A DNA stretch of 64,000 bases from Candidatus Woesebacteria bacterium RIFCSPLOWO2_01_FULL_39_23 (GTDB lineage: Bacteria; Patescibacteriota; Microgenomatia; UBA8517), in assembly GCA_001793095.1 (NCBI GenBank), contig MGHG01000008.1, positions 269 through 64,268 of the forward strand, given 5' to 3'. A model generated the notes under the pieces. It was not told where the DNA came from, searched no databases, and saw only the letters and a list, made by a program, of their open reading frames with translations. Made by a program: the position numbers and the translations under genes. This document shows positions 61,607 through 63,341 of the stretch, one piece after another; the first letter of the stretch is position 1; each line of letters starts with the position of its first letter.

Positions 61607-61743
61607 GCCCCGCACCAATTTAGCAGCTGATTCTCCAAAATATGAATCCTACTTATATAAAACTTAAGTAATATTATTCAAGTTAAATATAAAATAAGAC
61701 TCAAATTCGAATCAGTAATATTTTCTGCTAAATTGGTGCGGGG
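61607..61743 (-). repeat. 23S rRNA intervening sequence 1 (helix-63 region): 19-bp perfect stem GCCCCGCACCAATTTAGCAG / CTGCTAAATTGGTGCGGGG with ~98-nt AT-rich loop
   Basis: Inserted at the tip of a native helix; arms share the TIR family of the GIY-YIG elements. Confidence 0.7.
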
Positions 61744-62120
61744 AGGATATCTTCCGAAGTTACATCCAGCTTTTTTGCCGAGTTCCTTAAACCTCTTTCT
61801 CTCGCTCGCCTTACTATTCTCTAGCTGCCCACCTGTGTTGGTTTGCGGTACGACTTGATTTAGATCTCGCTGCGAACCTTTTCTTGTAGACAGAATGGGA
61901 TAAAATTGCCCCAATCTCTTAGGGCTCTGCATTGCTGCTTGATTAATCGTTTCAGCGGATTTTCCAACTGACCCTATCTAACAGCTTACACCCCGATATC
62001 ACATCGGGACTTTAATCATCCTATCCAGTCAATCCCCAGCTCCACGTTCAGTACTTGCGCATGAACGTGGTGGGCGATCTAAAACAAATAGTGGAATTTT
62101 AACCACTCATCCATCGACTA

Positions 62121-62258
62121 CCCCCGCACCAAAATGGCATCTTATTTTCCAAAATATGAATCTTACTCTTAATAATCACTAAACTATATTCTTCAAATAA
62201 ATTATTAAGGTTAATCTGATCCAATTAAGGTAATATTTTATGCCACTTAGGTGCGGGG
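62121..62258 (-). repeat. 23S rRNA intervening sequence 2 (helix-45 site): stem CCCCCGCACCAAAATGGCAT / ATGCCACTTAGGTGCGGGG
   Basis: Replaces the E. coli GAGGCC-GAAA-GGC tetraloop hairpin; ~100-nt AT-rich loop shares TCCAAAATATGAATC with IVS 1. Confidence 0.7.
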
Positions 62259-63204
62259 CTCATCTTAGGTATCGACTAACCCGTCGTGGACGAACCTAGC
62301 GACGGAAACCTTGGGCTTACGGCGTCCCAGATTCTCACTGGGATTGTACGCTACTCATACCGGCATTCTCACTTCCGTACCTTCCACTCCGCCTCACGGC
62401 GAAGCTTCACTGGATACGGAACGCTCCCCTACCACACCCGCTCGCAGAGCGGGAATGACCAATTTCCAATGGCAAATAACCAATGTATTATTAGAAGCCA
62501 TATTTAAACTTACTGCTTCTTTTACATTTAGCATTTATCATTTAGCATTTATCATTCCTGTTCTACGAACAGGTATCTCTAGCTTCGGCACGCAACTTAT
62601 CCTCGATAAATTTTAGGCGCCTGCTTCCATCGACCAGTGAGCTGTTACGCTATCTTTAAAGGGTGGCTGCTTCTAAGCCAACCTCCTGGCTGTTTACGGA
62701 AACCGACTTCCTTTCAAACTTAGCTGCGATTTAGAGGCCTTAGCCGAGAGTCTGGGTTGTTTCCCTTTGGACGCATCAGCTTAGCCCGATGCGACTGTCT
62801 AGTACGTTGTTATATATTGTTATTCGGAGTTTGGTTGAATGAAATTGCTTGCGCTCTCTCATCCATCCAGTATCTCTACCATCAATATACTTTTCGTACC
62901 ACGGTCCCTATAGACCTTTCGGGGAGAACCAGCTATCTCCAGGCTCGGTTGGCATATTACCACTATCCACAAGTCATCCCACGTTATTGCAACAACGACG
63001 GGTTCGGGCCTCCTTCCAATCTTCATCGGAATTCACCCTGCTCATGGCTAGATCGCCTGGTTTCGGGTCGGCCATCAGATACTCGTTACCAAAAGGTAAC
63101 ACGCGCTATTCGCACTCGGTTTCCCTTCACCTCCACCCGTTTAAGGGTTTAGATAGTTATCTAACGGCCACTCGCCGGCTCATTCTTCAATAGGCACGAT
63201 ATCA

Positions 63205-63341
63205 CCCCGCACCAAGTTGGCAGAAAATATTTCATTGATTTGAATGTTAACATTAACTAAACTTTAAGTTTATTGAAAGTTTAAACAATAAATAAACTCA
63301 TGTCTCATATTTTGAAAATCAGCTGCCAATTTGGTGCGGGG
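63205..63341 (-). repeat. 23S rRNA intervening sequence 3 (helix-25 site): stem CCCCGCACCAAGTTGGCAG / CTGCCAATTTGGTGCGGGG
   Basis: Classic IVS position (helix 25); one G.U in an otherwise perfect 19-bp stem. Confidence 0.7.

What the first reader, a model, noticed from the sequence alone, without database searches (positions are those of the whole stretch)
61607..63341. Three hairpin intervening sequences in the 23S rRNA at helix 25, helix 45 and helix 63 share near-identical 19-bp stems
Three insertions of 137-138 nt have perfect or near-perfect 19-bp stems with AT-rich loops of about 100 nt. They sit at the tips of native helices, which the flanking rRNA sequence places by alignment to E. 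coli.

Helices 25 and 45 are the classic IVS sites in Salmonella, Leptospira and Coxiella. There the IVSs are excised by RNase III and the 23S becomes fragmented.

Here all three share one stem sequence. They look like copies of one mobile unit, not independent expansions.
Basis: partly seen in the sequence, partly recalled or inferred. Interest (0 to 1): 0.75.

Follow-up and report, generated by a model that had tools for sequence, protein, structure and literature searches.

The report
Mobile hairpin repeats inside 23S rRNA
Three ~136-base hairpin inserts in the large-subunit rRNA gene of a groundwater Woesebacteria (CPR) bacterium are copies of one dispersed inverted-repeat element whose longer relatives carry a tiny GIY-YIG nuclease gene, which gives a concrete, testable origin for the long-puzzling 'intervening sequences' of bacterial rRNA.

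Summary
The 23S rRNA gene (minus strand, 59833-63944, 4112 nt) carries three 136-137-nt hairpin inserts with CCCCGCACC...GGTGCGGGG ends. They sit at 63205-63341 (helix 25), 62122-62258 (helix 52, not helix 45) and 61608-61743 (helix 63). Helix 45 holds an unrelated hairpin insert.

The three are copies of one repeat family, not local expansions:
- They share asymmetric sub-terminal sequence, and one copy is flipped.
- About 50 related 23S genes have only 10-35-nt caps, or inserts of other sequence families, at these sites.
- The same inverted repeat brackets two 87-129-aa GIY-YIG nuclease genes elsewhere in the window; one shares 16 identical bases with the helix-63 copy.
- All 11 independent homologous GIY-YIG loci I examined, from several phyla, have this repeat bracketing or next to the gene.

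Best reading: these are MITE/REPIN-like non-autonomous elements of a GIY-YIG-linked family resembling the Ssn/NTS system. They survive only at solvent-exposed helix tips and behave in the transcript as classical intervening sequences.

RNase III excision and mobilisation by the GIY-YIG protein are inferred, not shown. I rate it a new variant of known kinds, of moderately high interest.

The parts
59833..63944 (-). 23S rRNA gene, 4112 nt. It hosts all three family-A hairpins, three family-B hairpins and a group-I-intron-like insert.
   Evidence: Rfam RF02541, 2210.8 bits, model positions 1-2925. MAFFT alignment against E. coli 23S lists the insertions.
63205..63341 (-). Family-A hairpin element, 137 nt, at the tip of helix 25 (between E. 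coli ~542 and 551). Its internal orientation is flipped relative to the other two copies.
   Evidence: MFE -49.1, z -7.6; I1-I5.
62122..62258 (-). Family-A hairpin element, 137 nt, replacing the cap of helix 52 (E. coli 1361-1370).
   Evidence: (MFE -49.9, z -7.4).
61608..61743 (-). Family-A hairpin element, 136 nt, replacing helix 63 (E. coli ~1709-1749). It has a perfect 19-bp terminal stem.
   Evidence: MFE -63.2, z -11.7; I6.
10420..10817 (-). Full-length family-A element, 398 nt. The terminal inverted repeat TCCCGCACCAATTTAGCTA brackets a GIY-YIG ORF (10410-10799, 129 aa) that carries a ~36-40-aa in-frame insert. The repeat shares 16 contiguous bases with the helix-63 copy.
   Evidence: (Pfam GIY-YIG E = 9.2e-12).
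41553..41844 (+). Full-length family-A-type element, 292 nt. The repeat CCCCGCACCT(G)ATTCTGGCT brackets an 87-aa GIY-YIG ORF (41573-41836). It lies between tatC and a tatA paralogue.
   Evidence: (Pfam GIY-YIG E = 1.1e-17).
40131..40260 (.). Degenerate 130-nt ORF-less copy (CCCCACACCAATT...AATTTGTGCGGGG) between two tatA paralogues.
   Evidence: (minus-strand fold z -3.8).

Best explanation
The three inserts are non-autonomous, palindromic members (MITE- or REPIN-like) of a dispersed inverted-repeat element family, with terminal repeat 5'-CCCC(G/A)CACC-W-A-..-T-.-GC. The family is widespread in CPR/Patescibacteria. Its longer members carry a single-domain ~85-90-aa GIY-YIG nuclease gene in the 'loop'.

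DNA level (inferred). Copies spread within and between genomes. The GIY-YIG protein is the most likely mobilising or maintaining enzyme. By analogy with the Ssn/NTS and RAYT/REPIN systems, it would act on the hairpin that the repeats form in single-stranded DNA. In a single-copy rRNA operon, only insertions that replace the cap of a solvent-exposed, dispensable helix survive. Here those are helices 25, 52 and 63, which I recall as the eukaryotic expansion-segment sites ES7L, ES19L and ES27L (from memory, not checked against a source here).

RNA level (inferred). Each copy is transcribed within pre-23S as a ~60-bp near-continuous duplex stacked on the native helix. It is then most likely cut out by RNase III without religation, like classical intervening sequences. 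If the three unrelated family-B hairpins are also cut and the intron at position 1917 is spliced, the mature 23S would consist of pieces of about 603, 628, 175, 378, 109, 245 and 776 nt.

Shown: the repeat family, its sites, its patchy distribution, and its link to GIY-YIG genes. Inferred: the enzyme's role, the single-strand mechanism and RNase III excision.
For: One family:
- The motif is enriched, 11 against 0.57 expected.
- The three copies are 77-78% identical when correctly oriented. Shared asymmetric ends extend 27-46 nt beyond or around the stem.

Not lineage-wide:
- Among 68 related 23S loci, only contigs of the same organism carry the three copies.
- At helix 52 every other lineage has a 10-18-nt cap. 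Helix 63 is 16-35 nt in most. Helix 25 has either 12-19-nt caps or inserts of other families.
- Related copies sit at other helices in other lineages.
- The helix-52 copy is closer (82%) to the helix-28 copy of L014 than to its own genome mates, although the two 23S cores are only 81% identical.

Outside rRNA:
- A two-arm pattern found 19 loci in at least 6 CPR phyla, and only one of them lies in a 23S gene.
- Positions left free by the search pattern are complementary in 72 of 76 cases, against 46.6 expected.

Structure is conserved:
- 10 of 26 stem pairs show compensatory changes.
- The RNA-sense folds have 5-6 G.U pairs against 1-2 for the antisense strand. For two of the three copies the RNA-sense fold is 12-14 kcal/mol more stable; for the helix-25 copy the two strands are equal.

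Nuclease link:
- The same repeat brackets two GIY-YIG ORFs in the window.
- In all 11 independent homologue loci examined, the repeat brackets the gene or a ~100-nt hairpin element abuts it.
- The catalytic residues Y5, Y16, R26, H30 and E62 are invariant.
- The protein family has at least 7537 members.

Literature:
- Ssn GIY-YIG proteins cut single-stranded DNA next to hairpin repeats that flank their own genes (PMC11893778).
- CPR rRNA genes hold 30 GIY-YIG ORFs in non-intron insertions, plus many uncharacterised short insertions (PMC11270868).
- IVSs replace a tetraloop cap and are cut by RNase III (PMC4990558).
Against: - No experiment or transcript data are available here, so excision and retention of the hairpins cannot be told apart.
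- The rRNA copies have no target-site duplication. They replace the native cap rather than splitting it, so the insertion chemistry is unknown.
- GIY-YIG enzymes are hydrolytic nucleases, and none is a demonstrated transposase. The gene could be a passenger in the loop.
- The flipped orientation of the helix-25 copy could arise by in-situ inversion between the arms rather than by independent insertion.
- The closest relatives sampled are only ~84-86% identical in 23S, so 'recent' insertion cannot be claimed.
- The Ssn degenerate motif has no match in the window, and membership of cd10448 was not tested.
- In other phyla the elements have only 16-19-bp terminal repeats with unpaired interiors. 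The full-length hairpin is therefore a feature of the rRNA-resident subfamily.
Confidence: 0.7

Rival explanations
1. The hairpins are a real mobile repeat family, but the GIY-YIG protein is not what moves them. It would be a selfish or homing-type passenger nested in the hairpin loop. Spread would then occur by another route: another enzyme (for example the IS200-like Y1 transposase at 6896-7585), host recombination after uptake of foreign rRNA gene DNA, or replication template-switching between hairpin caps.
For: - A Y1_Tnp protein is encoded in the window (Pfam E = 8.6e-13). Y1 enzymes are the known mobilisers of hairpin repeats (REP/REPIN).
- The rRNA copies lack target duplications and replace native caps exactly, as expected for recombination or template switching.
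- GIY-YIG nucleases have no known strand-transfer activity.
- Classical IVSs carry unrelated passenger ORFs of the S23p family (PMC4990558).
Against: - The Y1 gene is flanked by its own, different palindromes, TTGACAGGG-N3-GACCCTGTCA. There are only three copies, all at that gene, and none resembles CCCCGCACC.
- The repeat-GIY-YIG association holds in 11 of 11 independent loci across phyla, with a chance expectation of about 0.005 per locus.
- Movement between different helices cannot be explained by homologous recombination alone.
Confidence: 0.22
2. The hairpins are kept in the mature 23S rRNA as bacterial expansion segments rather than being excised.
For: - The three helices are surface sites that I recall as carrying the large expansion segments ES7L, ES19L and ES27L in eukaryotes (from memory).
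- The hairpins stack coaxially on the native helices.
- The G.U enrichment shows RNA-level constraint, but it does not show what that constraint serves.
Against: - Published comparison of CPR rRNA genes with transcripts found the insertions removed (Brown et al. 2015 as cited in PMC11270868 and PMC9297842).
- Perfect duplexes of 19 bp and more are canonical RNase III substrates, and classical IVSs of the same shape are excised (PMC4990558).
- The inserts are 31% GC in a 45% GC rRNA gene and vary freely in sequence.
Confidence: 0.25
3. The three hairpins are ordinary, independently evolved IVSs or lineage-wide expansion segments whose similar stems arose by convergence, or they are an assembly artefact.
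For: Helix 25 is a classical IVS hotspot. Many relatives have long hairpins there.
Against: - Shared asymmetric sequence extends far beyond the stem.
- The terminal repeat is identical over 16 nt to that of a protein-coding element 50 kb away.
- The inserts are absent from about 50 relatives at helix 52.
- The same sequence was assembled independently in three other metagenomes and in the NCBI MAG.
Confidence: 0.02

Closest known systems
Classical bacterial 23S rRNA intervening sequences (Salmonella, Leptospira, Coxiella, Campylobacter; helices 9, 25 and 45)
   Same: - A long stem-loop with complementary termini replaces the small cap of a surface helix.
- Distribution among relatives is sporadic.
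- The sequence is AT-rich relative to the rRNA.
- Some family members carry an ORF in the loop.
- Excision by RNase III with fragmentation is expected.
   Different: - There are three copies of one family in a single gene, and one is flipped.
- Two sites (H52, H63) are not classical.
- The same repeat occurs outside rRNA.
- The loop ORF of the longer members is a GIY-YIG nuclease, not an S23p/23S_rRNA_IVP protein.
- Excision is not demonstrated here.
Ssn GIY-YIG single-strand nucleases with NTS/SRM hairpin repeats (Chenal et al. 2025, PMC11893778)
   Same: - The protein is a ~90-aa single-domain GIY-YIG with an intact catalytic core.
- The gene is flanked on both sides by a repeat that is also dispersed in the genome.
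- The repeat-gene-repeat layout is IS-like.
   Different: - Here the two flanking repeats are inverted and pair with each other across 100-380 nt. They are not each a compact ~28-nt hairpin.
- The published SRM degenerate motif has no match in the window.
- cd10448 membership is untested, and the best solved relatives are UPF0213 proteins.
- No link between Ssn and rRNA insertions has been reported.
REPIN / RAYT (REP doublets mobilised by Y1 HUH transposases)
   Same: - ORF-less ~100-150-nt hairpin-forming doublets of an inverted short repeat.
- A single enzyme gene is bracketed by the same repeats.
- The stem is conserved through compensatory change.
   Different: - The associated enzyme is a GIY-YIG nuclease, not a Y1 tyrosine transposase.
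- The Y1 gene in this window has its own, different palindromes.
- REPINs are extragenic, whereas these elements sit inside a structural RNA gene.
Correia elements of Neisseria and Rickettsia palindromic elements (from my own knowledge)
   Same: - Small palindromic repeats that are co-transcribed with host genes.
- They insert into functional genes at tolerated positions.
- Correia RNA hairpins are RNase III substrates.
   Different: - There is no sequence relationship.
- Neither family has an identified enzyme partner carrying the same ends.
- Neither is known as a multi-copy occupant of one rRNA gene.

Membership tests
Bacterial 23S rRNA intervening sequence (IVS) | Lies inside the 23S gene and replaces the terminal cap of a helix | tested here: met
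   Alignment to E. coli and to about 50 relatives, e.g. gag|GCCAAAATGGC|gta against gag|137-nt element|gta.
Bacterial 23S rRNA intervening sequence (IVS) | Complementary termini form a long stable stem | tested here: met
   19-bp stems, 89-100% complementary. MFE -49 to -63 kcal/mol, z -7.4 to -11.7.
Bacterial 23S rRNA intervening sequence (IVS) | Sporadic presence among related organisms | tested here: met
   Among 68 related 23S loci, only contigs of the same organism carry the three copies.
Bacterial 23S rRNA intervening sequence (IVS) | Excised from pre-23S by RNase III without religation, giving a fragmented 23S | not testable with these tools
   No RNA data are available. This is inferred from the shape of the hairpins and from literature on CPR rRNA insertions (PMC11270868, PMC9297842, PMC4990558).
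MITE / REPIN-like non-autonomous element | Several dispersed, short, ORF-less copies share terminal inverted repeats | tested here: met
   Four ORF-less copies in 64 kb (three in the rRNA gene, one intergenic), plus 19 loci in other genomes.
MITE / REPIN-like non-autonomous element | The same termini occur on a longer partner that encodes an enzyme | tested here: met
   10420-10817 and 41553-41844 encode GIY-YIG proteins. There is a 16-nt exact match of the repeat to the helix-63 copy.
MITE / REPIN-like non-autonomous element | Target-site duplication | tested here: inconclusive
   None at the three rRNA copies. Direct repeats of 3-6 bp flank some others: TTGA(C) in 10 of 18 non-rRNA loci, GTAAA in L030, GAG or CTC at the two window GIY-YIG elements.
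MITE / REPIN-like non-autonomous element | The partner enzyme belongs to a recognised transposase class | tested here: not met
   Pfam finds only a GIY-YIG nuclease domain in 87 aa. No DDE, HUH or recombinase domain is present.
Ssn family (cd10448) with SRM/NTS repeats | Single-domain ~90-aa GIY-YIG protein with an intact catalytic core | tested here: met
   87 aa, Pfam PF01541 E = 1.1e-17. Y5, Y16, R26, H30 and E62 are invariant in 10 sequences.
Ssn family (cd10448) with SRM/NTS repeats | Gene flanked on both sides by the dispersed repeat | tested here: met
   Seven loci are bracketed and four have an adjacent hairpin element, out of 11 examined. The geometry differs from Ssn: the arms are inverted and pair with each other.
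Ssn family (cd10448) with SRM/NTS repeats | Repeat matches the published SRM degenerate motif HGTCWY...RNCYNB | tested here: not met
   0 matches in the window on both strands.
Ssn family (cd10448) with SRM/NTS repeats | Protein falls in the cd10448 clade and cleaves single-stranded DNA site-specifically | not tested
   Neither a CDD search nor the SsnA sequence was available. The nearest solved structures are UPF0213 proteins (1zg2, E = 2e-7).
REP / RAYT system | A Y1 (HUH) transposase gene is bracketed by the repeat in question | tested here: not met
   The Y1_Tnp gene at 6896-7585 is bracketed by a different palindrome, and no CCCCGCACC lies nearby.
Group I intron with homing endonuclease | Ribozyme core detectable in the insert | tested here: not met
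   Permissive Rfam search: the three hairpins give only sub-threshold miRNA-precursor-like hits. The Intron_gpI hit lies in a different insert, at 60968-61111.

The most novel reading that the evidence does not exclude
The CCCC(R)CACC inverted-repeat elements and their ~85-90-aa GIY-YIG genes form a previously unrecognised class of prokaryotic transposable element. The protein family has at least 7537 members across CPR and other phyla. In this reading, an Ssn-like single-strand nuclease acts on the hairpin formed by the element's own ends and mobilises both itself and its ORF-less derivatives. Structured-RNA genes (23S rRNA helix caps, possibly RNase P RNA) are recurrent landing sites. This would make the elements the long-sought source of at least one kind of rRNA intervening sequence.
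Probability: 0.33. Interest if true: 0.85.

Novelty: new variant of a known kind. Interest (0 to 1): 0.62.

Why it matters
The origin of bacterial rRNA intervening sequences has been open since 1990. The 'remnant of a transposon' and 'mobile element with a helper ORF' ideas were never tied to an identifiable element family (PMC4990558). CPR bacteria carry hundreds of short, uncharacterised rRNA insertions, plus 30 GIY-YIG ORFs in non-intron rRNA insertions that were judged to be 'outside the context of homing' (PMC11270868).

This window connects the two. The short hairpin insertions and the GIY-YIG cassettes share one set of ends, and the same ends occur outside rRNA. That makes the question testable with one small protein and a 136-nt DNA.

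It also extends the recently described Ssn idea, in which a tiny GIY-YIG nuclease is paired with its own dispersed hairpin repeat, to a new repeat geometry and to a very large protein family. Finally, it predicts an unusually fragmented 23S rRNA of up to seven pieces in this organism.

Tried and rejected
- **Known RNA family.** Rfam at gathering and at permissive thresholds gives no family for the hairpins, only sub-threshold plant miRNA-precursor hits that reflect the hairpin shape.
- **Helix 45 placement of the middle copy.** Rejected by alignment to E. coli and relatives; it is helix 52.
- **Ssn SRM motif.** 0 matches in the window.
- **SsnA sequence for a direct comparison.** No supplementary files are held for that paper, so cd10448 membership is untested.
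- **The Y1/IS200-like transposase as mobiliser.** It has its own, different flanking palindromes.
- **Target-site duplications at the rRNA copies.** None found. A 'GAG' 5' flank is shared by four of six window copies, but I noticed this post hoc and do not rely on it.
- **GIY-YIG ORFs inside the 68 related 23S loci.** None found.
- **An RNase III gene in the window.** Not among the 30 ORFs scanned against Pfam; the rest of the genome is not available here.
- **Literature.** A search for the motif strings, and for GIY-YIG together with inverted repeats or Patescibacteria, found no prior description. Absence from this library is not proof of novelty.
- **Close relatives for dating the insertions.** The nearest other lineages are only ~84-86% identical in 23S.
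Full report
**Source and gene.** The window comes from Candidatus Woesebacteria bacterium RIFCSPLOWO2_01_FULL_39_23 (GCA_001792375.1, contig MGGL01000014.1), a CPR/Patescibacteria genome from groundwater. Rfam places a bacterial LSU rRNA on the minus strand at 59833-63944, with a 5S rRNA at 59536-59652. The gene is 4112 nt against a 2925-position model, so about 1.2 kb is inserted sequence.

**Checking the observation.** Three inserts with CCCCGCACC...GGTGCGGGG termini are present at 61608-61743, 62122-62258 and 63205-63341.
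- CCCCGCACCAA with up to 1 mismatch occurs 11 times in the window against 0.57 expected. None of 100 shuffles reaches 11.
- The terminal 19-nt arms are 100%, 89% and about 95% complementary.
- Each element folds into one long imperfect hairpin, not a stem with a 100-nt loop. MFE is -49 to -63 kcal/mol, z -7.4 to -11.7.
- There are 43-50 Watson-Crick and 5-6 G.U pairs per element.

**Where the copies sit.** I aligned the gene to an E. coli 23S (L001), to a related 23S (L014) and to 68 further relatives. Helix numbers are from my knowledge of the E. coli map.
- The 63205 copy lies between E. coli 542 and 551, which is helix 25.
- The 62122 copy is in place of E. coli 1361-1370, the GCCGAAAGGC cap of helix 52.
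- The 61608 copy is in place of E. coli ~1709-1749, which is helix 63.
- Helix 45 (E. coli 1164-1185) does carry a 143-nt hairpin, at 62434-62576, but it belongs to a different sequence family.

**One family rather than three local expansions.**
- Copies 61608 and 62122 share 46 nt at one end (85%) and 29 nt at the other (D3 and D4).
- Copy 63205 matches them better when reverse-complemented. Column identity is 81%, with complementary runs of 27-39 nt extending beyond the stem (I1-I4, 69). Its interior is therefore flipped.
- This could reflect insertion in the other orientation or inversion in place between the arms.
- The 19-bp stem is kept by compensatory changes at 10 of 26 pairs across five rRNA-resident copies.

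**Distribution among relatives.**
- A 23S-specific 23-mer retrieved 68 related 23S loci from metagenomes.
- Only L044, L068 and L071 carry the three elements. They come from three different samples and represent the same organism, with identical flanks. This also excludes an assembly artefact.
- At helix 52 every other lineage has a 10-18-nt cap.
- At helix 63 most have 16-35 nt. One lineage (L039/L040) has a related 132-nt TCCCGCAC element at the same site, and another has an unrelated hairpin.
- At helix 25 relatives have either 12-19-nt caps or 98-302-nt hairpins of other families.
- The L014 lineage carries a family-A copy at helix 28 only, with native caps at helices 52 and 63.
- The L073 lineage carries a 61-nt CCCACACC mini-element near E. 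coli 228.
- The helix-52 copy is 82% identical to the L014 helix-28 copy, closer than to its genome mates, while the two rRNA cores are 81% identical.
- The nearest other lineages are only ~84-86% identical in 23S. The insertions are lineage-specific but cannot be called recent.

**Copies outside rRNA and the nuclease link.**
- In the window the same repeat brackets two GIY-YIG ORFs. One element is 10420-10817, with repeat TCCCGCACCAATTTAGCTA sharing 16 contiguous bases with the helix-63 copy. The other is 41553-41844.
- A degenerate ORF-less copy lies at 40131-40260. Pfam E-values for the two ORFs are 9.2e-12 and 1.1e-17.
- A two-arm pattern scan of one genome per species found 19 loci in Uhr-, Yonath-, Sungii-, Morani- and Saccharibacteria and in Parcubacteria. 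Only one of them lies in a 23S gene.
- Positions left free by the pattern are complementary in 72 of 76 cases against 46.6 expected. Pairing stops after ~18 bp. The general family is therefore a classical terminal-repeat element, and the fully paired interior is a feature of the rRNA-resident subfamily.
- I examined 11 independent loci encoding homologous GIY-YIG proteins: the two window elements plus L010, L023, L027, L028/L101, L030/L105, L099, L102, L104 and L106.
- In all 11, a CCCC(N)CAC(C) repeat brackets the gene, or a ~100-nt hairpin element with these ends abuts it. The loci lie between unrelated neighbours.
- In L030/L105 the element sits in the first codons of an ABC ATPase gene. 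It is flanked by a GTAAA direct repeat and supplies a new in-frame ATG.
- The catalytic residues are invariant. A profile search found at least 7537 relatives of 84-90 aa in many phyla.
- The nearest solved structures are UPF0213 proteins.

**Literature.**
- Tsurumaki et al. 2024 (PMC11270868) catalogued CPR rRNA insertions. [quoted passage not shown]
- They also found many uncharacterised insertions under 200 bp, presumed to be RNase III IVSs at two sites. Inverted repeats and hairpins are not mentioned.
- Chenal et al. 2025 (PMC11893778) showed that ~94-aa single-domain GIY-YIG proteins (Ssn, cd10448) cut single-stranded DNA next to hairpin repeats. Those repeats flank their own genes and are dispersed in the genome. 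The authors noted the IS-like layout.
- Warrier et al. 2016 (PMC4990558) state that IVSs replace a tetraloop, that they are cut by RNase III in the stem, and that their origin is unknown. Transposon-remnant and helper-ORF hypotheses remain untested.
- Searches for the motif, or for GIY-YIG with inverted repeats in Patescibacteria, found no prior description.

**Mechanism.**
- Shown: a dispersed inverted-repeat family, its occupation of several different rRNA helix caps, conservation of pairing, and its tight association with a small GIY-YIG nuclease.
- Inferred at the DNA level: the nuclease mobilises or maintains the elements by acting on the hairpin that the ends form in single-stranded DNA, by analogy with Ssn/NTS and RAYT/REPIN.
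- Inferred at the RNA level: the hairpin is removed by RNase III.
- Evidence for an RNA-level role: the RNA-sense strand has 5-6 G.U pairs against 1-2 in the antisense strand. It is 12-14 kcal/mol more stable for two of the three copies and equal for the helix-25 copy.
- Cited transcript evidence for CPR insertions points the same way.
- The three sites are ones I recall as eukaryotic expansion-segment positions. This fits survival only where the ribosome tolerates extra or broken RNA.

**Rivals.**
- The IS200-like Y1 transposase at 6896-7585 is the obvious alternative mobiliser of hairpin repeats. However, it is bracketed by its own palindrome, present only at that gene.
- A passenger role for the GIY-YIG gene, recombination or template switching as the insertion route, and retention of the hairpins as expansion segments all remain open.
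- Independent in-situ evolution and assembly artefact are effectively excluded.

**Verdict.** The 'one mobile unit' reading is supported and extended by a nuclease partner and a phylum-spanning family. RNase III excision is plausible but untested. This is a new variant of known kinds (IVS, MITE/REPIN, Ssn-like nuclease plus repeat). Interest is moderately high because it makes the origin of IVSs experimentally approachable.

Noticed in passing
window 62434-62576 (helix 45), 61393-61498 (helix 68), 60609-60712 (helix 78): A second, unrelated family of hairpin inserts ('family B') lies in the same 23S gene. It shares AAATGCTAAATG-type interiors and a G.U-rich terminal stem (CYUGUKC.../...GMGCGRG). 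The same family sits at helix 25 in many relatives (L032, L049, L053, L047), so it too appears to move between helices.
   Followed up: partly
window 60923-61357: A 435-nt insert at E. coli position 1917 (helix 69 loop) gives a sub-threshold group I intron match (37.9 bits against a cutoff of 50, E = 1.3e-7) and has no ORF. L014 has a full-scoring group I intron in the same region of its 23S gene.
   Followed up: partly
window 6857-7620: An IS200-like Y1 transposase gene (6896-7585, Pfam E = 8.6e-13) is bracketed by 22-nt palindromes TTGACAGGG-N3-GACCCTGTCA at 6857-6880 and 7597-7620, with a third copy inside the gene at 7368-7391. This is a RAYT/REP-like layout.
   Followed up: partly
window 3645-4602: A third GIY-YIG ORF (3680-3958, Pfam E = 6.9e-14) is flanked by two direct copies of a sequence starting AACGTAAAGTA (3645 and 3933). 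From reading the sequence, each looks able to form a compact ~30-nt hairpin, an Ssn-like repeat-gene-repeat layout. [quoted passage not shown]
   Followed up: partly
related 23S loci L031-L098; window 61992-62008: A mini-hairpin cap YCCGAU-(2-7 nt)-AUCGGR recurs at 16 mapped positions, mostly variable helix tips, including E. coli ~132, 152, 228, 540, 607, 707, 1163, 1455, 1699, 1860 and 2127. At helices 25, 52 and 63 it appears as CCCCGAUUUUAAUCGGGG, sharing the outer CCCCG/CGGGG with family A. Whether it is a target, a remnant or merely a favoured cap is unknown.
   Followed up: partly
window 10535-10640: The GIY-YIG ORF of the 10420-10817 element carries a ~36-40-aa in-frame insert made of nested palindromes (ctccgcggaccaagagtccgcgg, ctccgggctgatagcccggag). 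It resembles an in-frame palindromic-element insertion. The catalytic residues remain intact.
   Followed up: no
L008, L012, L015, L018, L020-L024; L073 846-851: In 10 of 18 non-rRNA copies from other phyla the element is flanked by TTGA(C) on both sides (nTTGAC|CCCGCACC...GGTGCGGG|GTTGACA), whatever the internal orientation. This could be a preferred target with duplication, or an IS200/IS605-style cleavage tag. The same TTGAC precedes the mini-element inside the L073 23S gene.
   Followed up: partly
L099 1181-1560: A GIY-YIG element with CCCCTCAC ends directly abuts a sequence that looks like the 5' end of RNase P RNA (GGAGGAAAGTCCGAGC). This suggests that structured-RNA genes other than rRNA are also landing sites.
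   Followed up: no
window 39779-42000: At least five small tatA/E paralogues surround tatC (40792-41538). Two family-A elements (40131-40260 and 41553-41844) lie between them.
   Followed up: no
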